Shown here: one piece after another, positions 4,776-30,841 of the stretch
How positions within the stretch are numbered: the first letter of the stretch is position 1
Layout: every line of letters starts with the position of its first letter
Origin: Escherichia phage ECP2303
Direction: 5' to 3' (one strand)
DNA: 64,000 bases
Sequence record: PP261279.1
Position numbers and translations under genes: made by a program
The notes under the pieces: generated by a model
Told to the model about the DNA's origin: nothing
Seen by the model: only the letters and a program-made list of their open reading frames with translations
The model's database searches: none

Positions 4776-5060
4776 TTATTTATTGATAGCGTGCAGCGGG
4801 AAAGCTACGCCAGGTTGATAAATAACCTTTACAACCTCATCAGGACAAAAGAAGTTGCAGAACTCACCGCAATAGGCCTCATCCTCTTTCAACTCTTCAT
4901 CAACATACTCAAAAAAGTAGTCGATGCTTGGATAATCCTGGCCGTGATTATAGTCAACCATCGTTAATAATAACTCTTGATCATTCCGTAGGATGTGCAT
5001 ACCCGCTTTTAAGTATTTTGCTTCCATTTCTACTACATTGCCAGCGGTAACAATAGCCAT
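4776..5060 (-). CDS. hypothetical protein
   Basis: 94-aa ORF; RBS aggag. Confidence 0.65.
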   Translation of the reverse strand: MAIVTAGNVVEMEAKYLKAGMHILRNDQELLLTMVDYNHGQDYPSIDYFFEYVDEELKEDEAYCGEFCNFFCPDEVVKVIYQPGVAFPLHAINK

Positions 5061-14610: not shown

Positions 14611-15069
14611 TCAACACCCTTTGTACTCCACCACGATAATATCTATATCAAAAGTGGCAAGGTTAATAATGTCCTCTACATGTTCCCACTTCAAACCGCC
14701 TATGCCGCACCCGATCTTAGGGATGTAGAATGGTAAAATCGACCCCTCAAATACTTCATTGACTCGCTCAAATCCTTTCAGTATTGAGAAATATTCAGCA
14801 TTAGGTCCTGGATAGAACTGAGTATACAGATTTATTCCGTAGACAATACCTCTCGGAGATAAGTGCTCCCAACGGGAGAACGCGCCCAGTTTACTTAGGC
14901 AACCGTGCATAGTCATTTTATCAGCTTCCAATGCTTGAGGGAATTCACGAGCAATCTGCTTTGCTACACCCTTCCCCATTGTGTGGAAGCAGTTACAACC
15001 GTGGATCAGGTGACCAGCACCGCTCTTAAAAAGGGAGATTAAATCTCCCTCTACAGTATCAATAATCAC
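14611..15069 (-). CDS. macro-domain protein (ADP-ribose binding/processing family)
   Basis: Translation shows IVIIDTVEGDLI, HGCNCFHTMGKGVAKQI and IPKIGCGIGG, aligning with macro-domain blocks (GDIT, NAAN...GGGGVDGAI, P.ISTG.YG); likely GTG start overlapping the upstream stop. Confidence 0.6.
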   Translation of the reverse strand: MIIDTVEGDLISLFKSGAGHLIHGCNCFHTMGKGVAKQIAREFPQALEADKMTMHGCLSKLGAFSRWEHLSPRGIVYGINLYTQFYPGPNAEYFSILKGFERVNEVFEGSILPFYIPKIGCGIGGLKWEHVEDIINLATFDIDIIVVEYKGC

Positions 15070-16260: not shown

Positions 16261-16279
16261 TTTTCAGTCCTCTCTATAC

Positions 16280-16308
16280 AAAAATGCCCCACCCTTTCGG
16301 GTAGGGCT
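16280..16308 (-). terminator. rho-independent terminator with GAAA tetraloop
   Basis: Minus-sense gccctacccGAAAgggtggggc followed by atttttgtat; near-identical copy at 26439-26467. Confidence 0.6.
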
Positions 16309-16322
16309 ATGTTAACTAGATG

Positions 16323-17549
16323 TTAAAAAGGTATGTCATCATCAAAGGCGTACTGTGCCGGATTCTGATCCATCGGGTCGTCTTCCGCATCATCTACAGG
16401 AGGAGCGTCTACAGTGTTTTGCTGTGGGGCGGCTTCCTGTTTGGCAGCTTGAGGCTCTTGATGGTCAGTGGCTCCAGCACCGTTCTTGATCCAATCATAC
16501 AACGGTTCAGCAAGATTAGTCAAGACATCTTTTGCCTCTGCAGTAATTGCTACTGCAAAATCATCAACTTTCGTTTTCTTGTCAATACGGCGACAAGCGT
16601 TCAATACCGCATTACCAACACTGGCACCTACTTCATCTTCAGTTCGGTTAGTGGCTTGAGCGTACTCTTTCTTAAGCTCGATGGTGACCACGTGCAGTGT
16701 TTTAGCCACATCTAAAGGGCTGTCAATCTTAAACCCGCGATCCAGGATGATCTGCAATGCATTGATACTGTGCCCTGTCTCTACACCGATGGGGTCGTAA
16801 GAGGATTTACGCTTACCACCAGAACCTTGTGTACCGTTCTCTGCTTTAGGCGGGTAGGCCTTGAAGCCGCTGATAATATTCCCGGTGTCTTTGTCAACAA
16901 TAGCTGCAACACGACCGCCAACCACCAGGTCTTTAAGCTGCTCATCAGAGACAACCATAGCACCTTCACCAATCTTGTGATCATTGACAGTAACCACGTT
17001 GCCAACAATCTGAGTCACATCACCATAGATGCGTAAAACGTCCTGATTGGCATTCTGCTGAGGTTTCTGCTTCTGGCCTTGTGATTGTGTGCCTTGTTGC
17101 TGTTTTTGTTGCTGTGGAGCTGCTGGAGCCTCTCCTGCCCCCAACTTAACCATTTTAGCCAGTGAGCCTTTGTAGTAGGTCTTGCCGTTATGCTCGTTTG
17201 CCTTCAAAGGGATATTTACGATCCATCCTGGCGTTACGGTTTCCCACTTGTCGTCAATTTTAACAGAGACGGAGTCTTGATGACCAGGCTTAAGCAGCTT
17301 ATCACCCATACTGATCCAAACTTCTTCACCACCTTGGAGCAGGTTATCAGAGGAGTCCAGTTCAGAAATCAGTAAAGAGATGGTGTGGCTGGATTCAATT
17401 TTCTTACCTTGCCACACAGTGGTTTTAATACCTGTTGTAGGATCAGCACCTTTAATGGGCTTGATGCTGACACGTTTAATCATACCGTGAGCCAGTAAAA
17501 CAGTTTCACGCGGATTCATCGGGTTGGCAAATTGTTGAATAACGCTCAT
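16323..17549 (-). CDS. single-stranded DNA-binding protein-like (acidic C-terminal DDDIPF tail, Q-rich linker)
   Basis: C-terminus ...AQYAFDDDIPF matches the bacterial SSB tail signature; start at MSVIQQ... with RBS aaggagacaaata-ATG rather than the upstream ORF-track start. Confidence 0.6.
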   Translation of the reverse strand: MSVIQQFANPMNPRETVLLAHGMIKRVSIKPIKGADPTTGIKTTVWQGKKIESSHTISLLISELDSSDNLLQGGEEVWISMGDKLLKPGHQDSVSVKIDDKWETVTPGWIVNIPLKANEHNGKTYYKGSLAKMVKLGAGEAPAAPQQQKQQQGTQSQGQKQKPQQNANQDVLRIYGDVTQIVGNVVTVNDHKIGEGAMVVSDEQLKDLVVGGRVAAIVDKDTGNIISGFKAYPPKAENGTQGSGGKRKSSYDPIGVETGHSINALQIILDRGFKIDSPLDVAKTLHVVTIELKKEYAQATNRTEDEVGASVGNAVLNACRRIDKKTKVDDFAVAITAEAKDVLTNLAEPLYDWIKNGAGATDHQEPQAAKQEAAPQQNTVDAPPVDDAEDDPMDQNPAQYAFDDDIPF

Positions 17550-17914
17550 TATTTGTCTCCTTGTTCTTCGTTGGTGTTTGCTGTGTGTGCAAACCCTGCT
17601 TGAATTAATTTGTCCTGCACTTGAGCCAACAGGCCCATTGCAAAACTTGTCGTCCCAGAAAGGGCCATTAGCATATCTCGTTGCTGAGCTACCCAACCTA
17701 AGGCATAATCTAAACGACGATATTTTTCTTCTTCGCGCAGAGCCTGAAATAACTGTTCAGCCTCTGGTTGTTGTGTGAGCTCCTGAAGTCTTCCCATAAA
17801 AGAAGAAAGTACCAGCAGAAGAGACACTTGATCTTTGCTTAACCCTAAGAAAAATTCTTGAGGTTGTTCTTGCTCGTTCATCGCAACCGACGCTTGATCG
17901 TTCATTTGTTCCAT
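17549..17914 (-). CDS. hypothetical protein
   Basis: ORF-track frame 17549..17959; start at MEQMNDQ... with RBS ggag; TAATG overlap with the SSB-like gene. Confidence 0.55.
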   Translation of the reverse strand: MEQMNDQASVAMNEQEQPQEFFLGLSKDQVSLLLVLSSFMGRLQELTQQPEAEQLFQALREEEKYRRLDYALGWVAQQRDMLMALSGTTSFAMGLLAQVQDKLIQAGFAHTANTNEEQGDK

Positions 17915-19225: not shown

Positions 19226-19288
19226 TGCTGTGGTCTCCTTTCGTTTTGATAGGGCCATTATATTAGACCCCATCTCTATTGTCAAGTA

Positions 19289-20752: not shown

Positions 20753-23530
20753 TTAGTGACAATCGCCCCAGTTACGACCGCACAAGTATTCACCTGTGAT
20801 CTGGAACGGAACGCCCATCATTTTAGAAGCCTGCCAGAAGCAATGCACCACCATTTCGCCCACAGGGCTCCAGATAAGTTCAAGCTTTCCGTCATCGTTC
20901 AAGATAGGATCGTATACCGTATTTCCGTCCTTGTCAACCATTTCGTTTCCATCCTCATCTTTGCGTGCCTTTTTGTACTTATGACCGTCGAACACATGAA
21001 GTTTAGCCTCCTGCTTGGCCTTAAATGTTTCCAGCTCTTCAATTGTGTCGAAGGTGTATACGGTTTTATACTTAGGTGTGTCAGGCACTTGAAGCTGATA
21101 TTCGTCATGGTAATAAATAATACGACGAACACCTTCATCATACCATCCACGCTTCACCATTTGGTGGTGCATGAGGATTCCGACCAAGTCGCACAACGAT
21201 GCACCGCCATTTTGCTGATATGCATTAAGCAAAGAGTGTTTAGAGCGGGTCCAAATGGCATGCCCGTCAAAAGAGTAGATAAATTTCTTACCTGTTGCTT
21301 CCCAGAATTTCTCCAGATCCTCTTTACGCCCCTTAAGGCCTGGGTTGGCATCCCAGAGAGCATCAATTACTCTCTGTCCAAGTTCTGGAGAGATATCTAG
21401 CATATCTGCAACTTTATCTTTTTGTGCCCCGTACATAACCCCATATGTGACAGGCTTACCATCGTTACGAGACACCTCTCTACCTGCTACTTTTGTATAT
21501 GCCTCAGCATTGTTTTGGTGCGCGTCCCCGTTACTTACAACATCATAATACAGACCGTTGTCAAACTCAAAGGCACCCCAGGCCCCGATGAGCTGCTCTA
21601 AGTTGGACCCGTCAATACCGATCTCAAAGTATCCCGGAGGAACACCCCACAGACTACGCATCTCTTTACCCATAACCACTTTAGGAGATGGTTTAGGCAT
21701 GTTTGCACAAATACTATGTTTCTGTCTGGAAGTGTTTGTTAATCCAGAACTTTTAGCAGGAAGCTTGTGGTCAATCTTCAAACGTGGATGATTAAGAAGA
21801 CCAGTATCAACCTTATCTTCCTTGATTGGATCAAGGACCGATCTGCGGTTTCGCAATGATAACCACAAAACGATATCTTTAGCCATCTCTCCGTTCAATT
21901 TTTCAAGATTCGGGCACAGGTGTCCAAACGTATCTTTCAGTTGCGGAGAAGTAATAAGCGCTCTGGCTTTTCTACGTATCTTCCCAAACACTTCCTTTTT
22001 AATCCTTTCTGAGTTAGGGAAGCTTCGGAACTTATGCACAGTTGTCTGGAACTTGGCATCAGTTTTGTTCCAGAAGTTGATAATTAGATCACAATACTCT
22101 GACTCTAAAAGCTCGTCCATATATGCATATACTCGTGCATCAACATCTGCATCAGGTAAAGCTTTCTTCTTACTATCCTTAGTTACATCCTTAGTTCTCC
22201 ACATTGTTGGGAGCCAACCAGCACTGATCAGGTATCGCTTGATGTCGTCCTGATTGCTGATTTTCATAGGTATCTTGCAGTCAGGCATTCGCTTCTGCTG
22301 TAGGTCACTTATCGCCTGATCCATCAGCTCTTTAGGTAAAGGGTGTGGTGTAGAAGTTCCTTTGATATACCCCCTCAAGAAATCAGCCATCTTATCGGGG
22401 TCTTTACAGCCCATCTCTTCACACCATTTTATCCCCATCTTACTTACATCCCCTGTGGAGGTAAATGCTCGCTTAGGAGGGGCTTTAAATTCTAAAGCAC
22501 TCATGTCTACAGGATAGCCAAGCTTGTCTTTTAACCATTTCCAACCATTATTGGAGATTGTCCCATCTTGGTTAAACGGCTTTTCAGGGAACTTAGGCCG
22601 TTGAGACATTGATAGCTCTTTTAAAGGAAGTTGTGGTTCAACACGATCAGCGATCTCTTTCATCCACGCATCGCAGCGGTCACGTAAAGCAATAGCCCCA
22701 TCTATGTCGAAATACACCCCCTGTCGAGCCTGCAGCTCCATCAGGAAGTGCTGTAACATGCCTCGGCGTAATGCGTTCTTCCAGGTGATCTTCTTGAAGC
22801 CTTTCGGCTTCTCTTTGGCAGGATCGTACATAAAGTTCTGCATGTCAGATTTGCCGTAGAATACACCTTTTGATTCAGCTACCAACTCCTTCCAGAGCAA
22901 CTCCTGAATGATAACGTCCTCGAACACACGATCCACATACTTCCACAGCGGAAGCTCACGCCAGTCATCGATTTGAACTTTCTGGTTACCAAGGGCATAG
23001 CCCCATGCCATAAGGCCATGAGGCCCAACAGGCTGCATTTTCTTGGTAACTGGATTGAATACTGCGTCCGGACAACCTTTTGGCAAAGGGCGGTCAGGCC
23101 ACAAGATTCGACTCATCGCTAACGTATCAAACAGATTAACCTGGTGGTCGTTGATAGTTCCCATGCATTTAGGATCACGGAACATATCAAAATGAATACC
23201 GGATAATCTTTCCATCAGCATAAAGTCGTAACTGTAGCAGTTATGGCAGTTCAAAGCCGTAGGTGACCAGTCTGAATTGCCTGTAAGCCAGCCTTCCAAC
23301 TCTGAAAAATCTGCTATGCGAGCCTCAAAATCTGTATAAAGGGTCTTCTTTGCCAGAATGAAGTTCTTAGCTTTCTCCACATCCTCTTCAGAGTAGTGTG
23401 TGCGGTCATTTAGGGGAAGGAACAGCATAAAACGGTTCTTATTCAGCTCTTTAAACAAACCGCAGTGATAATAAAGATCTGGGTCTTCCAGCAAGCCAGA
23501 GGCCTCAAAATCGAACGACCACATGCTCAT
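20753..23530 (-). CDS. DNA polymerase, family A, with N-terminal 3'-5' exonuclease domain
   Basis: 925 aa; Exo I-like FDFEASGL; motif A-like GIDGSNLEQL; motif B-like RNDGKPVTYGVMYG; motif C-like IIYYHDEYQL; RBS aaggaga. Confidence 0.9.
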   Translation of the reverse strand: MSMWSFDFEASGLLEDPDLYYHCGLFKELNKNRFMLFLPLNDRTHYSEEDVEKAKNFILAKKTLYTDFEARIADFSELEGWLTGNSDWSPTALNCHNCYSYDFMLMERLSGIHFDMFRDPKCMGTINDHQVNLFDTLAMSRILWPDRPLPKGCPDAVFNPVTKKMQPVGPHGLMAWGYALGNQKVQIDDWRELPLWKYVDRVFEDVIIQELLWKELVAESKGVFYGKSDMQNFMYDPAKEKPKGFKKITWKNALRRGMLQHFLMELQARQGVYFDIDGAIALRDRCDAWMKEIADRVEPQLPLKELSMSQRPKFPEKPFNQDGTISNNGWKWLKDKLGYPVDMSALEFKAPPKRAFTSTGDVSKMGIKWCEEMGCKDPDKMADFLRGYIKGTSTPHPLPKELMDQAISDLQQKRMPDCKIPMKISNQDDIKRYLISAGWLPTMWRTKDVTKDSKKKALPDADVDARVYAYMDELLESEYCDLIINFWNKTDAKFQTTVHKFRSFPNSERIKKEVFGKIRRKARALITSPQLKDTFGHLCPNLEKLNGEMAKDIVLWLSLRNRRSVLDPIKEDKVDTGLLNHPRLKIDHKLPAKSSGLTNTSRQKHSICANMPKPSPKVVMGKEMRSLWGVPPGYFEIGIDGSNLEQLIGAWGAFEFDNGLYYDVVSNGDAHQNNAEAYTKVAGREVSRNDGKPVTYGVMYGAQKDKVADMLDISPELGQRVIDALWDANPGLKGRKEDLEKFWEATGKKFIYSFDGHAIWTRSKHSLLNAYQQNGGASLCDLVGILMHHQMVKRGWYDEGVRRIIYYHDEYQLQVPDTPKYKTVYTFDTIEELETFKAKQEAKLHVFDGHKYKKARKDEDGNEMVDKDGNTVYDPILNDDGKLELIWSPVGEMVVHCFWQASKMMGVPFQITGEYLCGRNWGDCH

Positions 23531-23588: not shown

Positions 23589-25667
23589 TTAAAAAGGTGT
23601 TTCGTCGTCTTCAAAACCAGGAACGTGGTTAGAGGACGGATCATCATACTGAAGATCTTCCTGTGTGTCAACAGGGTTAACAGCAGGAGTTATAACCTTA
23701 TCAGCCACAACCTTGCCCACAGGTGTTTCTACAACTGCATGCTCCTGATCCTCAAACATAGCTTGAGGTCTCCAAACAACCTCTCCACCTTCCCCGTCTG
23801 TAAACATCTGCATCTCTTTATCCCAATACCAATTGCTGGCATCGTGGAACTTGCCTGTGTGGGGATCCATAACTAGGGTGTCCGCAATACCTAAGGTTTT
23901 TGCTGGGCGGTTTTTAAGACCTACCAGCCGGACACGTCCACGGGAACGATCCACCATCTCCTCTGCCTCTACCCCGACAACCACCCAGCTAAGTTGCTCC
24001 AATCCGGCACTACCGCGAAGGTTCTCTTTTCGCACAGGGTACCAGAAAGGTAACGGATTTCCATCCTTATCCTTCGGAGGTACAATCTCTGTGCGCTTCA
24101 GGTGAGCAATCACCAAGATAAACACATTAAACTGCTTACAGAACGCGGCTAGTTGAGTCATAGCCATGTCAAGCTCTTTACGCTCATCCTTAACATTAAG
24201 CCCTGAAATCACCATAGACAAGTGATCCAGCACAATGTAACGGCAGTGATACAGGCACACCATTTGTTTAAGCTTAGTGATCAGCTCATCTACAGGGATG
24301 GAGCCGAAATGCTTGAACACTTTGATTTTTCCGGCCTTGGCCCAAGATTGATGAATCTCAGCGTGCTCCTGATCGGTCAGGAACTGACTGGGGTCTTCAA
24401 CAAACTCTTTAACATCAAACCCCAGCTGGTTAGCGTACAGAGAGTTGATTGCTTCCTCAGGATCCTCTTCAAGGTGAATCAGGCACAGGCGATCATCCTC
24501 TTCATAATCATCAGCTTTAGGGCATGTTGGGTCCATCAAGTATCTTGCAATGCAATGTTCCAGCTTCTTGGCTACAGTTGTTTTACCACCGCCAGACGGG
24601 CCTGTCAGCATCATCAAGGTGCCTTTGTGGAGTCCTTTCAGCATCTTCTGCAGTTTAGGGAACTCTGCACTAATATCCACGCCATTGGAAGTCTTCTTAC
24701 GAAGAGATTCAATGGAGAAGTCTTCTAAATCAGATACAGCATCAGGCACATATTTGACTGGGTGACGGAACATGTTGACAATATCTTCCAGCTTTTTAGC
24801 CTTCAGCATGTCACGAATATCTTTTACACCATCAGGGTCGTTTACCTCACCTGGGTATTCCACGTGGTAAACGTTGTCAGCCATCAAAAATGCTGCGATA
24901 TTATGCGTAGCTTCAACACCTTTGATAACGTGTTTTTGCTTCTCTACCTCGTTAGCTGCATCGTTGTCCATTGCAAGGACTACTGTTCCGTAGCTACGGA
25001 TAAATTTCTCATTGTTCGCAAAAGTGTCTACGGCGTTTGCACACCCGCAGTTAATTCCGACAAAAGGCAGGCATGGTTTTCCTGCCAGATCACCGCCGTT
25101 GATAACTGCATCAATCCCATCCTGGACTTCTTTAGCCCACTGCTTCACCTTCGCTGGGGCTTTAGCATTGGTGAGAATACCTTTTACTTGTACCTGATAT
25201 GCAGCCTGCCACGCTGCAATAACATCTCCTTCCCCCTCACAAACGTTAATCTGCTTGCGGTTGTTGGAGGATGCACACAGCTTTTGACCAAACATCTGGG
25301 AGTTGGCCTTTACTATGCCGACAACCGAGAAATGGCCCCTTTGCTCTTTAGGGATTGTCCAGTCACGCTTTTTAAAGCCAGATAGATTACCGTAGCGGTC
25401 ATAATACGGAAAGTAGGTGGCAGTAACAGTTACGCCATCCTCTTGGGATAGCGATGATCGTACACCAAAATATTGTGCAGCCATCAGTCCAATATTTTGT
25501 TGTGGAACAGGGACAATTTTAGTATTTTCTAAAACAGTCTCTACAGTTTCAACTTCTTTTTCATCACGATAGTCTCGTTTCACACTTCCCCCACTTTTAT
25601 ACTTAGTTGCTTTCGGGTTTGGCTCACCGAAACGGTTGTATGCAGATGCCATGAATTTACTGCCCAT
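23589..25667 (-). CDS. primase-helicase (TOPRIM primase + DnaB-family helicase, T7 gp4-like)
   Basis: 692 aa; TOPRIM-like VCEGEGD and LAMDNDAAN; Walker A LTGPSGGGKTT; VLDHLSMV; IAHLKR; LRGSAGLEQLS. Confidence 0.85.
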   Translation of the reverse strand: MGSKFMASAYNRFGEPNPKATKYKSGGSVKRDYRDEKEVETVETVLENTKIVPVPQQNIGLMAAQYFGVRSSLSQEDGVTVTATYFPYYDRYGNLSGFKKRDWTIPKEQRGHFSVVGIVKANSQMFGQKLCASSNNRKQINVCEGEGDVIAAWQAAYQVQVKGILTNAKAPAKVKQWAKEVQDGIDAVINGGDLAGKPCLPFVGINCGCANAVDTFANNEKFIRSYGTVVLAMDNDAANEVEKQKHVIKGVEATHNIAAFLMADNVYHVEYPGEVNDPDGVKDIRDMLKAKKLEDIVNMFRHPVKYVPDAVSDLEDFSIESLRKKTSNGVDISAEFPKLQKMLKGLHKGTLMMLTGPSGGGKTTVAKKLEHCIARYLMDPTCPKADDYEEDDRLCLIHLEEDPEEAINSLYANQLGFDVKEFVEDPSQFLTDQEHAEIHQSWAKAGKIKVFKHFGSIPVDELITKLKQMVCLYHCRYIVLDHLSMVISGLNVKDERKELDMAMTQLAAFCKQFNVFILVIAHLKRTEIVPPKDKDGNPLPFWYPVRKENLRGSAGLEQLSWVVVGVEAEEMVDRSRGRVRLVGLKNRPAKTLGIADTLVMDPHTGKFHDASNWYWDKEMQMFTDGEGGEVVWRPQAMFEDQEHAVVETPVGKVVADKVITPAVNPVDTQEDLQYDDPSSNHVPGFEDDETPF

Positions 25668-29132: not shown

Positions 29133-29474
29133 CTACTCAAGGTCTTCAGAGTCAAGCTCAAAAAGAATCAAACTGTGCATGCCTGCAGAGAGATCAACAC
29201 ACCCTGCAACAATAAGGGTTTGATAGTAAGGTTCAGCACCCTCAATATCTTCGTTAAAATCCACAACAAGGTAGTCACCTTTGTTAAAGGTGTATTTGTC
29301 CGATGTAAACGCAAAACCTGCCCAGTCACCTACTGCAGGATCTTTATCAGTCACCTTTGTTAGCAGTAGATCTTTTTCACGAGATCTTTTAGTAAAATCG
29401 TGAATCACAACATCCTTCTCTTCAGGAGTCGGATTGCCACACACGTAGTTAACGATATTTCTCCACAAACTCAT
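29133..29474 (-). CDS. hypothetical protein
   Basis: 113-aa ORF; 4-nt overlap with the Dda-like gene. Confidence 0.6.
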   Translation of the reverse strand: MSLWRNIVNYVCGNPTPEEKDVVIHDFTKRSREKDLLLTKVTDKDPAVGDWAGFAFTSDKYTFNKGDYLVVDFNEDIEGAEPYYQTLIVAGCVDLSAGMHSLILFELDSEDLE

Positions 29475-30841
29475 ACGTCCCCCTTTTCTGCTCTAGTTTC
29501 AAAATCTTTCCTGACTTTCTCGTCTAAGCCAGGAAAAGTTGTATTATAAAACTCTACGACTCTCGGGTCAACAATAATATCCACCTCTCTTAATGGACGC
29601 AACAAGTTTATTCCTTGTATCGTCTTAACCCGACTCAAGGCAACATACGTCATTCCGGGAGAGAAAGCTCCGTTCTTTCCGAGGTCCAGGTTGTAACAAT
29701 CTAGCGTAAGTCCTTGACTTTTATGTGATGTTACTGCGTACCCTGATTTCAAAGGGAGTTGCTCATAAGACCCGATCACAACCCTCTCTATGAACTTCTC
29801 CATCTTCCTTTCGGCAATATTGTACCTCTGGGAAGGTTTGTACTCGTTATTCTCCCACAATCTCGGCTCAATTTCAACCTGTGCCCCGTCTTCCAGCTCA
29901 ACTACTACAGATTTGGTCTTGAATTTTACCACTGTGGCGCGTGTCCCGTTGACATAGTACGGAACTTTGTGGGTAGGGTCAACATCGTTTGAGGTTATCA
30001 TAACCTTCATCCCTATCTTCAGCCTCATTTCCTGCTCCACAGGCAGTGTGGAAGGGAACTTACCTTTCATTTTACCAATGTAGGTCTTCTCTGGGGCCTT
30101 GATGGCATCATAGAAACGTCTGTTCACCTCCTCTGCTTGCTTATTGGTGGCACAGATGGTCAAGGCATCTGTTGGGACACCACCATGATAGCAACGAGTG
30201 TTAAGCTCTGCTACAACCTCTTTTATGCGACGACCTTCACGAACACAGTTCAACATTGTGGCGAAGCGAACAGATTCCTGACGGAACTGGTCTACTAAGG
30301 CTATATTGTGAAGATTAAGATCCTCCCAAGATTTTGTATAGCAACACAGATCTGTGTGGTAGAAGTTGAAGTAGGCCTCCTTCTCCATAGAAGAGACAAC
30401 TGGAGGTGCTTGGTAGAAGTCTCCAAACAATAACACCTGAATGCCTCCGAAAGGCTTGTCATTTTTCCGAAGAAAGCGGAGTTTTCTATCCATCTCTATG
30501 AACTTGTCAGCACGGATCATGGAGATTTCATCGATAATTAGGATGGTAAATGCCTTGCTTTTCAGAGGCTTTGCTGTTTTTGCCCTTATTGCTGTCCAGT
30601 CTGACTCCATGCTCACACCTGCGGCAAGATCGAAAGTTCGGTGAGCTGTTGCTCCATTAACGTTTAAAGCGGCTACCCCTGTCGGGGCAACCGTTATGCA
30701 AGAGTCTCCATACATGGACTGGATTATGTTGATAAGATATGTCTTCCCTGTTCCACCAGGTCCACTTACGAAGACATTCTCACCGCTCATGATTGCAACA
30801 AGGGCAGCATCTGTGCCTACATCGTACTGCCCTTTTTCCAT
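29471..30841 (-). CDS. dda: SF1B DNA helicase, Dda/Pif1/RecD-like
   Basis: 456 aa; Walker A GPGGTGKTY; VAPTGVAA; Walker B DEISMI; VTSHKSQGLTLD. Confidence 0.8.
   Translation of the reverse strand: MEKGQYDVGTDAALVAIMSGENVFVSGPGGTGKTYLINIIQSMYGDSCITVAPTGVAALNVNGATAHRTFDLAAGVSMESDWTAIRAKTAKPLKSKAFTILIIDEISMIRADKFIEMDRKLRFLRKNDKPFGGIQVLLFGDFYQAPPVVSSMEKEAYFNFYHTDLCCYTKSWEDLNLHNIALVDQFRQESVRFATMLNCVREGRRIKEVVAELNTRCYHGGVPTDALTICATNKQAEEVNRRFYDAIKAPEKTYIGKMKGKFPSTLPVEQEMRLKIGMKVMITSNDVDPTHKVPYYVNGTRATVVKFKTKSVVVELEDGAQVEIEPRLWENNEYKPSQRYNIAERKMEKFIERVVIGSYEQLPLKSGYAVTSHKSQGLTLDCYNLDLGKNGAFSPGMTYVALSRVKTIQGINLLRPLREVDIIVDPRVVEFYNTTFPGLDEKVRKDFETRAEKGDV

What the first reader, a model, noticed from the sequence alone, without database searches (positions are those of the whole stretch)
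16323..17549. SSB-like protein with canonical DDDIPF tail but unusual long N-terminal body
The C-terminal ...AFDDDIPF is the interaction tail of bacterial-type SSBs, and a Gln-rich linker precedes it, but the ~400-aa body is far longer than an OB-fold SSB and may be a fusion or a distinct ssDNA-binding/annealing fold.
Basis: partly seen in the sequence, partly recalled or inferred. Interest (0 to 1): 0.4.

Follow-up and report, generated by a model that had tools for sequence, protein, structure and literature searches.

The report
Phage SSB-like protein, host-type tail
This is a real gene of an rV5-like E. coli phage whose product is most likely the phage's own single-stranded-DNA-binding protein, built from two OB folds and a helical bundle and ending in the same tail as the host SSB; a 97%-identical copy was already reported in a 2026 preprint as the trigger of the DRT10 defence system.

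Summary
Window 16323-17549 (minus strand) is a 408-aa gene with a good ribosome-binding site and its own terminator, ending ...AFDDDIPF, the last seven residues of E. coli SSB.

The tail is not a coincidence. It is conserved across a family of about 254 sequence clusters, where the terminal Pro-Phe are two of only four invariant positions.

The "long body" is not one unusual domain. It consists of:
- an OB-fold domain (residues 1-138);
- a Gln-rich disordered linker;
- a minimal OB fold (171-232);
- a confidently modelled four-helix bundle (253-355) with no specific known structural relative;
- a disordered acidic linker and the tip.

The gene lies in the replication cluster, near a family-A polymerase and a DnaB-like primase/helicase. 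No other SSB was found in the phage genome. Distant relatives sit in T7-like replication modules.

The window is Escherichia phage ECP2309 (Vequintavirus). The 97%-identical orthologue Bas52_0087 was described in April 2026 (bioRxiv 10.64898/2026.04.29.721553) as an "SSB-like" trigger of DRT10, and its escape positions D252 and Y351 are conserved here.

ssDNA binding and the tail's partners remain untested. Interest is modest.

The parts
16323..17549 (-). CDS of the SSB-like protein (408 aa plus stop at 16323-16325)
   Evidence: Open frame. It is 100% identical to the ECP2309 CDS WXX18284.1 and 97% identical to Bas52_0087. It matches phrog_4477 at E 1.5e-172.
17556..17560 (-). Shine-Dalgarno GGAGA. 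The ATG at 17549-17547 overlaps the upstream gene's TAA by 1 nt (TAATG).
17136..17549 (-). N-terminal OB-fold domain (about residues 1-138), the proposed ssDNA-binding module
17043..17135 (-). Gln-rich disordered linker 1 (about residues 139-169; 13 Q in 31 residues)
   Evidence: pLDDT below 50; sequence; length varies between homologues.
16851..17042 (-). Middle small beta-barrel (about residues 170-233) with strand order b1-b2-b3-helix-b4-b5, a minimal OB topology. Optional module, present only in the long forms.
16800..16850 (-). Gly/Lys-rich disordered linker 2 (about residues 234-250)
   Evidence: pLDDT below 50.
16479..16799 (-). Four-helix bundle (about residues 251-357), the most conserved module (D252, G259-H260, N263, H286, G308, G312). 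It carries both DRT10-escape positions, D252 and Y351.
16350..16478 (-). Disordered Pro/Gln/Ala/Asp-rich acidic linker (about residues 358-400)
   Evidence: pLDDT below 50; sequence.
16326..16349 (-). C-terminal tip AFDDDIPF (SSB-Ct type)
   Evidence: family-wide conservation.
16277..16307 (-). Intrinsic terminator (GCCCTACCC-GAAA-GGGTGGGGC plus T-run) ending the transcription unit
23589..25667 (-). DnaB-like primase/helicase of the same replication cluster. It also ends in an acidic PF tail (...PGFEDDETPF*; tail at 23592-23615).
   Evidence: Pfam DnaB_C and AAA_25; tail. Only these two real genes among the window's 326 ORFs of 60 aa or more have such a tail.
20753..23530 (-). Family-A DNA polymerase of the same cluster, a candidate docking partner for the tails
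   Evidence: Pfam DNA_pol_A, E 1e-7, 31.7 bits, just under the 34.3-bit gathering cut-off. The orthologous Bas52 gene is annotated as DNA polymerase.

Best explanation
[quoted passage not shown] It belongs to an uncurated phage family (phrog_4477).

**Proposed working.**
- The N-terminal OB fold, helped in the long forms by the second minimal OB fold, binds ssDNA exposed at phage replication and recombination intermediates.
- The conserved four-helix bundle mediates self-association or cooperativity, or another protein contact.
- The long disordered acidic linker presents the C-terminal tip ...FDDDIPF. This tip is a docking peptide for partner proteins, as in bacterial SSB and T7 gp2.5.
- Because the tip is identical to the host SSB-Ct, it can also engage host SSB-binding proteins (ExoI/SbcB, RecQ, PriA, the chi subunit of Pol III and others) and so perturb host ssDNA metabolism. 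DRT10 appears to sense this perturbation.

**Shown.** Gene structure, domain architecture, tail conservation, genomic context, and orthology to the genetically defined DRT10 trigger.

**Inferred.** ssDNA binding, oligomerisation through the bundle, and the identity of the tail's partners.
For: **Fold.**
- Two confidently modelled beta domains.
- The best PDB matches are dominated by OB-fold nucleic-acid binders: Stn1 8.3, RecO 8.1, RPA 7.8, Rim1 7.8, bacterial SSBs 7.0-7.7, LEF-3 7.6.
- In the viral structure library, hits beyond the family itself include DUF2815 (E 2.5e-3, prob 0.98), annotated phage SSBs and LEF-3.

**Tail.**
- It is identical to the E. coli SSB-Ct.
- P407 and F408 are invariant across about 25%-identical relatives.
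- 104 of 146 remote representatives end in xPF.

**Context.**
- The gene is on the same strand as, and close to, a family-A polymerase, a DnaB-like primase/helicase and a PIF1/RecD-like helicase.
- The orthologue lies 11 genes downstream of the polymerase in Bas52.
- In BME3 the homologue lies two genes after the polymerase.
- Distant short-form members sit between the polymerase (or a T7 Gp5.9-like gene) and a 5'-3' exonuclease in T7-like modules.

**No competing SSB.**
- None is annotated in record positions 4,785-129,999.
- No ORF matches E. coli SSB or T7 gp2.5 by phmmer.

**Parallel tail.** The phage's own primase/helicase also ends in an acidic ...DDETPF. This recalls T7, where the tails of gp2.5 and gp4 dock on the polymerase (T7 facts as quoted).

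**Genetics on the 97%-identical orthologue.** Bas52_0087 is required for DRT10 activation, and SbcB/ExoI dosage modulates that system.

**Precedent.** A phage SSB tail can be essential for partner recruitment, as for HK620 SSB and Sak4.

**Annotation.** Several phi92-like homologues are already annotated as SSB.
Against: - Nobody has shown ssDNA binding for any family member; the preprint offers only prediction and genetics.
- There is no sequence-level similarity to any SSB family, Pfam model or PDB chain apart from the tail.
- The function of the most conserved module, the helical bundle, is unknown, and both escape mutations map there rather than to the OB folds.
- Expressing Bas52_0087 alone does not trigger DRT10.
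- In many alleles and relatives the IPF is followed by a conserved 15-16-residue extension, so the Phe carboxylate is not free there. By established knowledge of the ExoI, RecQ and chi complexes, that carboxylate is needed for canonical SSB-Ct pocket binding.
- The PF tail on the helicase is not found in distant T7-like contigs.
Confidence: 0.62

Rival explanations
1. It is a host-takeover decoy. The protein is not a general SSB. It displays a host-identical SSB-Ct peptide on a multimeric scaffold to sequester or redirect host SSB-interacting enzymes such as ExoI/SbcB, RecQ, RecJ, PriA and Pol III chi. This would protect phage ssDNA ends or shut down host replication and repair.
For: - The tip is identical to the host's and is the most conserved feature of the family.
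- DRT10 triggering by the orthologue is genetically linked to SbcB/ExoI dosage.
- The escape mutations lie in the helical bundle rather than in the OB folds.
Against: - Two conserved OB folds would be unnecessary for a pure decoy.
- The conserved placement in replication modules, including small T7-like genomes, fits a core replication role.
- No other SSB was found in a 137-kb genome that encodes its own replisome.
- Variants with a capped tail are common.
Confidence: 0.17
2. It is a recombination mediator or annealing protein (RecO- or SSAP-like). An OB fold plus a helical domain would load a recombinase or anneal ssDNA, with the tail used to reach SSB-binding sites.
Against: - The helical domain searched alone does not retrieve RecO among its 60 best hits, all of which are generic helical proteins. 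The resemblance therefore most likely comes from the OB fold.
- No Pfam or PHROG annealase or mediator family matches.
- RecO binds SSB tails rather than carrying one (established knowledge; PMC7913777 abstract).
Confidence: 0.08
3. It is another replisome accessory, such as a helicase loader, primosome organiser or polymerase processivity factor, that uses OB folds and an acidic tail without coating ssDNA stoichiometrically.
For: It sits in the replication cluster. The primase/helicase has a similar tail, suggesting a shared docking site. The function of the helical bundle is unknown.
Against: The combination of OB fold, long disordered linker and acidic Phe-terminated tip is the hallmark plan of SSBs (E. 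coli SSB, T7 gp2.5). There is no similarity to known loaders or clamps.
Confidence: 0.08

Closest known systems
Bas52_0087 (QXV84166.1) of Escherichia phage RudolfGeigy, the 'SSB-like' trigger of the DRT10/UG17 defence system (bioRxiv 10.64898/2026.04.29.721553)
   Same: 97% identical over all 408 residues, with the same length, tail and genomic position. D252 and Y351, the positions of the escape mutants D252V and Y351C, are conserved. The preprint describes two OB folds, a disordered C-terminus and an FDDDIPF tip.
   Different: Twelve substitutions, none at the escape positions or in the tip. The preprint reports no ssDNA-binding or interaction biochemistry. As far as the text I read shows, it does not describe the family-wide picture: short versus long forms, the invariant Pro-Phe, the helical bundle as a distinct domain without known relatives, or the helicase tail.
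Bacterial-type SSB (E. coli SSB; Pfam PF00436) and canonical phage copies such as Salmonella phage epsilon34 gp35
   Same: The plan is an OB-fold body, a disordered low-complexity linker and an acidic tip. The last seven residues, FDDDIPF, are identical. Some phage copies of both kinds carry the same post-IPF extension (AP[IV].L...H..).
   Different: There is no sequence similarity in the body: no PF00436 hit even at E up to 10, and the PDB profile search aligns only the tail. This protein has two OB folds and an extra four-helix bundle, at 408 aa against about 170-180. A tetramer interface is not evident and was not tested.
T7 gp2.5 and Enc34 ORF6 (DUF2815, 'phage ssDNA-binding domain')
   Same: A phage-specific OB-fold SSB with an acidic, Phe-terminated tail that docks on a family-A polymerase and a gp4-type primase/helicase (as quoted). 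Distant members of this family sit in T7-like replication modules. There is a weak structural hit to a DUF2815 protein (E 2.5e-3, prob 0.98). Here the primase/helicase also has an acidic PF tail.
   Different: No sequence match. The tail sequence is the bacterial DDDIPF, not the gp2.5 type. gp2.5 has no helical bundle and no second OB fold.
RPA / CST (Stn1) multi-OB ssDNA binders
   Different: The similarity is at fold level only (7-16% identity). This protein has no winged-helix domains, a different oligomeric logic, and a bacterial-type tail.

Membership tests
phrog_4477 / Bas52_0087 family (phage 'SSB-like' DRT10 trigger) | Full-length sequence homology | tested here: met
   phrog_4477 at E 1.5e-172, covering residues 1-408 against profile positions 1-393 of 393. 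97% identity to Bas52_0087.
phrog_4477 / Bas52_0087 family (phage 'SSB-like' DRT10 trigger) | Residues whose mutation lets the phage escape DRT10 (D252, Y351) are present | tested here: met
   Both are conserved at the same positions. D252 is nearly invariant among close homologues.
phrog_4477 / Bas52_0087 family (phage 'SSB-like' DRT10 trigger) | Activates DRT10 during infection | not testable with these tools
   Known only from the genetics in the preprint on Bas52.
Bacterial-type SSB (PF00436) | Sequence match of the OB domain to the SSB family model | tested here: not met
   No PF00436 hit at E up to 10. phmmer of the protein and hmmsearch of the family profile against the PDB give no body match.
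Bacterial-type SSB (PF00436) | OB-fold DNA-binding core | tested here: met
Bacterial-type SSB (PF00436) | Disordered linker followed by the acidic C-terminal tip D-D-D-I-P-F at the very C-terminus | tested here: met
   pLDDT is below 50 for model residues 358-402. The sequence ends FDDDIPF* and this is conserved family-wide.
Bacterial-type SSB (PF00436) | High-affinity, sequence-independent ssDNA binding; homotetramer | not testable with these tools
   Needs EMSA or anisotropy and SEC-MALS. No multimer prediction was available.
T7 gp2.5 / DUF2815 phage SSBs | Sequence or clear structural homology of the OB core | tested here: inconclusive
Only weak Foldseek hits to DUF2815 proteins (E 2.5e-3 to 4e-2).
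T7 gp2.5 / DUF2815 phage SSBs | Acidic C-terminal tail ending in Phe | tested here: met
T7 gp2.5 / DUF2815 phage SSBs | Encoded in a replication module with a family-A polymerase and a gp4-type primase/helicase | tested here: met
   In the window and in the distant relatives L015 to L017.
RecO-type recombination mediator | OB fold followed by the RecO helical / zinc-binding domain | tested here: not met

The most novel reading that the evidence does not exclude
phrog_4477 is a distinct, widespread class of phage SSB of about 254 clusters. In this class a previously undescribed four-helix bundle, rather than an OB-OB interface, provides oligomerisation or cooperativity. Its invariant host-type Pro-Phe tip lets the phage plug its ssDNA into, or starve, the host SSB interactome (for example ExoI). 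That act is what DRT10-type systems guard against. The alternative C-terminal extension (AP[IV]GLQY..H..), shared with canonical phage SSBs and a primase/helicase, would then be a switch that masks or retargets the tip.
Probability: 0.25. Interest if true: 0.6.

Novelty: already known. Interest (0 to 1): 0.3.

Why it matters
rV5-like phages (Vequintavirinae) are common candidates for therapy and biocontrol, yet their replication proteins are mostly annotated "hypothetical". Assigning their missing SSB improves annotation of at least 277 phage genomes.

The protein also links phage replication to host immunity, because its orthologue is the genetic trigger of DRT10. A tail identical to the host SSB-Ct suggests direct competition for host ssDNA-processing enzymes.

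What remains new and testable is biochemical:
- whether the OB folds bind ssDNA;
- what the conserved helical bundle does;
- which proteins the invariant Pro-Phe tip recruits;
- what the recurrent post-IPF extension is for.

Tried and rejected
1. **Curated families.** Pfam gave only noise (PIN_9, DCX2 at E of about 0.1). The PDB sequence search gave noise. Pfam scans of ten remote family members also found nothing above the cut-offs.

2. **Internal duplication.** hhalign between the N-terminal, middle and helical sub-alignments gave a probability of 0.2% or less. The two OB folds are not detectable duplicates of each other.

3. **RecO homology.** Rejected, because the helical domain alone finds only generic helical proteins.

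5. **The 'APIGLQY...' extension as read-through into an inserted homing-endonuclease cassette, group I intron or intein.**
   - In Bas54 a 640-nt insertion carrying the extension and a homing-endonuclease gene (HEG) sits exactly between the Phe codon and the stop. The Bas54 and L008 HEGs share a Zn-finger N-terminus.
   - Rfam finds no intron.
   - L007 and BME3 have the extension followed directly by a terminator.
   - The gene after the epsilon34 SSB is a DnaQ-like exonuclease.
   - So the extension is a genuine alternative C-terminus, not just an insertion artefact.

6. **Tail-versus-host covariation through prophage copies.** The genome-collection scan found only one relative, on a Succinivibrio MAG contig. 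The test could not be done.

7. **Helicase PF tail as a general family-linked feature.** Not found in the distant T7-like contigs.

8. **Another SSB elsewhere in the genome.** None is annotated.

9. **Literature on the extension motif.** None found.

Full report
**Observation**

The stretch 16323-17549 is open only on the minus strand. It encodes a 408-aa protein, MSVIQQ...AQYAFDDDIPF*. The ATG at 17549 follows a GGAGA ribosome-binding site and overlaps the stop of the upstream gene by one base (TAATG). Directly after the TAA lies a strong hairpin with a T-run, GCCCTACCC-GAAA-GGGTGGGGC-ATTTTTG at 16307-16286, with a folding energy of -21.9 kcal/mol and z = -4.3. Several sigma-70-like promoters, one of them a perfect consensus at 19285-19257, lie upstream on the same strand. 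This is a real, well-delimited gene in a region likely transcribed by host RNA polymerase.

**Source**

The window is essentially identical to Escherichia phage ECP2309 (PP464953.1), a Vequintavirus (rV5-like). It is 92-98% identical to more than 100 other such phages. By tblastn the protein occurs in 277 phage records. These include Vequintavirinae of Escherichia, Klebsiella, Salmonella, Cronobacter and Pectobacterium. A shorter form occurs in phi92-like Stephanstirmvirinae. It is almost always annotated "hypothetical protein"; a few phi92-like records call it SSB. Pfam has no model for it. PHROGs files it as phrog_4477, "unknown function" (E 1.5e-172). No PDB chain resembles it in sequence.

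**The tail is not coincidental**

FDDDIPF is identical to the last seven residues of E. coli SSB. DDDIPF is the SSB-Ct hexapeptide (PMC5872125).

- Among 57 homologues at 34-97% identity, every full-length one keeps an acidic ...[IV]PF motif.
- A profile search of 1.84 billion representative proteins found 254 family clusters.
- Of the 146 new representatives, 104 end exactly in [IVLMT]PF and about 18 more in close variants (APF, SPF, LDF, IPW). Most of the rest are truncated fragments.
- In a 66-sequence alignment at about 25% identity, only four columns are invariant: G22, G312, P407 and F408.

**Architecture**

An AlphaFold2 model built from a 27-sequence alignment has mean pLDDT 74.8. It shows three confident modules separated by disordered linkers.

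| Residues | Module | Confidence |
|---|---|---|
| ~1-138 | beta domain (OB fold) | pLDDT 81-91 |
| ~139-169 | disordered Gln-rich linker | pLDDT below 50 |
| ~171-232 | compact barrel, strand order b1-b2-b3-helix-b4-b5 (canonical OB topology) | pLDDT 82-86 |
| ~234-250 | Gly/Lys-rich linker | pLDDT below 50 |
| ~253-355 | four-helix bundle | pLDDT above 90 |
| ~358-400 | disordered acidic Pro/Gln/Ala-rich linker | pLDDT below 50 |
| 401-408 | tip | - |

The middle OB fold is optional. Most family members are "short forms" of 255-300 aa with only the N-terminal OB fold, the bundle and the tail.

**Context**

The gene lies on the same strand as a replication cluster:
- a family-A DNA polymerase (20753-23530);
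- a DnaB-like primase/helicase (23589-25667);
- a DNA methylase;
- a PIF1/RecD-like helicase (29471-30841).

No SSB is annotated anywhere between record positions 4,785 and 129,999. No ORF resembles E. coli SSB or T7 gp2.5.

Distant short-form relatives lie in T7-like modules: Toprim primase, then family-A polymerase, then small ORFs including a T7 Gp5.9-like gene, then this protein, then a 5'-3' exonuclease. In BME3 the homologue lies two genes after the polymerase. The family is almost absent from bacterial genomes: the genome scan, which used a narrow pattern, gave one hit on a MAG contig. It therefore looks like a gene of virulent phages.

**Literature**

A bioRxiv preprint of April 2026 (10.64898/2026.04.29.721553) isolated Bas52 mutants that escape the DRT10 (UG17) reverse-transcriptase defence.
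- Both mutants carried changes in Bas52_0087 (QXV84166.1): D252V or Y351C.
- The authors used Phold and AlphaFold2 to call the protein [quoted passage not shown].
- They propose interference with SbcB/ExoI.
- Expression of the protein alone did not activate DRT10.
- No ssDNA-binding experiment is reported.

Bas52 is phage RudolfGeigy, MZ501102. Its gene 0087 is 97% identical to the window's protein, has the same length, and keeps D252 and Y351.

**Most likely mechanism**

I commit, at about 0.6, to the phage's replicative SSB.
- The OB fold or folds bind ssDNA.
- The helical bundle provides self-association or another contact. Both escape mutations sit at its ends.
- The long acidic linker presents a Pro-Phe tip that recruits partners.

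Two kinds of partner are plausible. One is the phage's own T7-like replisome. In T7 the Phe-terminated acidic tail of gp2.5 docks on the polymerase and the helicase (quoted). Here the primase/helicase itself also ends ...FEDDETPF, the only other real gene in the window with such a tail. The other is the host SSB interactome, because the tip is identical to the host's and because of the SbcB link to DRT10. The HK620 SSB-Sak4 case shows that a phage SSB tip can be essential for recruiting a partner.

The rivals are a pure decoy of host SSB partners (about 0.17), a RecO- or annealase-like mediator (about 0.08) and another replisome accessory (about 0.08). The conserved OB folds and replication context argue against the decoy. 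The RecO idea is weakened because the helical domain does not resemble RecO's.

**An unexplained complication**

Many alleles and relatives do not stop at IPF. They continue with a conserved 15-16-residue peptide, AP[IV]GLQY[GA]...[HY]..[LF].
- The same bipartite ending occurs on the canonical SSB of Salmonella phage epsilon34 (...DFDDDIPFAPVTLPFPRHAIHAI).
- It occurs on the phi92-like homologue.
- It occurs on the primase/helicase of a Klebsiella relative (...DDDTPFAPIGLQYAKHAIYVI).
- A peptide search hits 643 phage records.
- In Bas54 the extension comes together with a homing-endonuclease gene, in a 640-nt insertion placed exactly between the Phe codon and the stop. Elsewhere the extension is followed directly by a terminator, so it is a genuine alternative C-terminus.

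Canonical SSB-Ct pockets use the free carboxylate of the terminal Phe (established structural knowledge on ExoI, RecQ and chi). Extended variants should therefore bind differently or be masked. The window's allele has the plain, free tip.

**Verdict**

The thing itself is already described through a near-identical orthologue. What remains open is biochemical: ssDNA binding, the role of the bundle, the tail's partners and the extension. Interest is modest (0.3). The most novel reading still allowed, a distinct SSB class with a new oligomerisation domain that hijacks the host SSB interactome and is guarded by DRT10, has a probability of about 0.25.

Noticed in passing
window 23589-25667 (-), tail at 23592-23615: The phage's DnaB-like primase/helicase also ends in an acidic Pro-Phe tail (...PGFEDDETPF*). 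It is the only other real gene in the window that does. In a Klebsiella relative the helicase ends ...GPDDDTPFAPIGLQYAKHAIYVI. This suggests that SSB and helicase share a docking site, as T7 gp2.5 and gp4 do. The feature is absent from distant T7-like contigs.
   Followed up: partly
homologues of window 16323-16349: L002 2725-2772, L009 3463-3510, L011 1234-1281, L012 3034-3081: A conserved 15-16-aa extension (AP[IV]GLQY..H..) follows the IPF in many alleles of this family. It also follows the IPF in canonical phage SSBs (epsilon34 gp35) and in a primase/helicase. A peptide search hits 643 phage records. Its function is unknown, and it would bury the terminal Phe carboxylate. No literature was found.
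   Followed up: partly
L002 2725-3364 (Bas54 MaxBurger), corresponding to window position 16325/16326: There is a presence/absence polymorphism of a 640-nt insertion placed exactly between the Phe codon and the stop codon. The insertion carries the extension and a 207-aa homing endonuclease whose ATG lies inside the extension and which uses the original TAA. The window allele lacks it. The 423-aa extended form is the largest cluster, with 533 member sequences. Rfam finds no group I intron. The HEG shares a Zn-finger N-terminus with the ORF after the L008 homologue.
   Followed up: partly
L013 709-876, L017 5837-6001: In distant short-form relatives, the gene immediately upstream, with an overlapping stop/start, is a T7 Gp5.9-like gene (PF25708; Gp5.9 is a RecBCD inhibitor). 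In the window the equivalent, translationally coupled upstream gene (17549-17914, phrog_7310) has unknown function.
   Followed up: no
window 14611-15069 (-): A macro-domain protein (Pfam Macro, E 1.3e-7) lies four genes downstream. It could be an ADP-ribose-removing counter-defence enzyme.
   Followed up: no
window 19257-19285 (-): A perfect sigma-70 consensus promoter (TTGACA-17-TATAAT) sits on the gene's strand, and several other near-consensus promoters lie in 18.2-20.7 kb. There are 17 promoter-like sites against 8.5 expected.
   Followed up: no
phage records MG065635.1, MG065646.1, MG065658.1 and others: About 16-20 records labelled 'Campylobacter phage' (host C. jejuni) are 92-98% identical to rV5-like E. 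coli phages across this region. The host labels look doubtful.
   Followed up: no
L004 1-2803 (Bas52 bas52_0076): The DNA polymerase CDS of Bas52 is annotated as a join of two pieces. In the window the polymerase is one contiguous 925-aa ORF (20753-23530). This may be another insertion polymorphism (intron or HEG) in the replication cluster.
   Followed up: no
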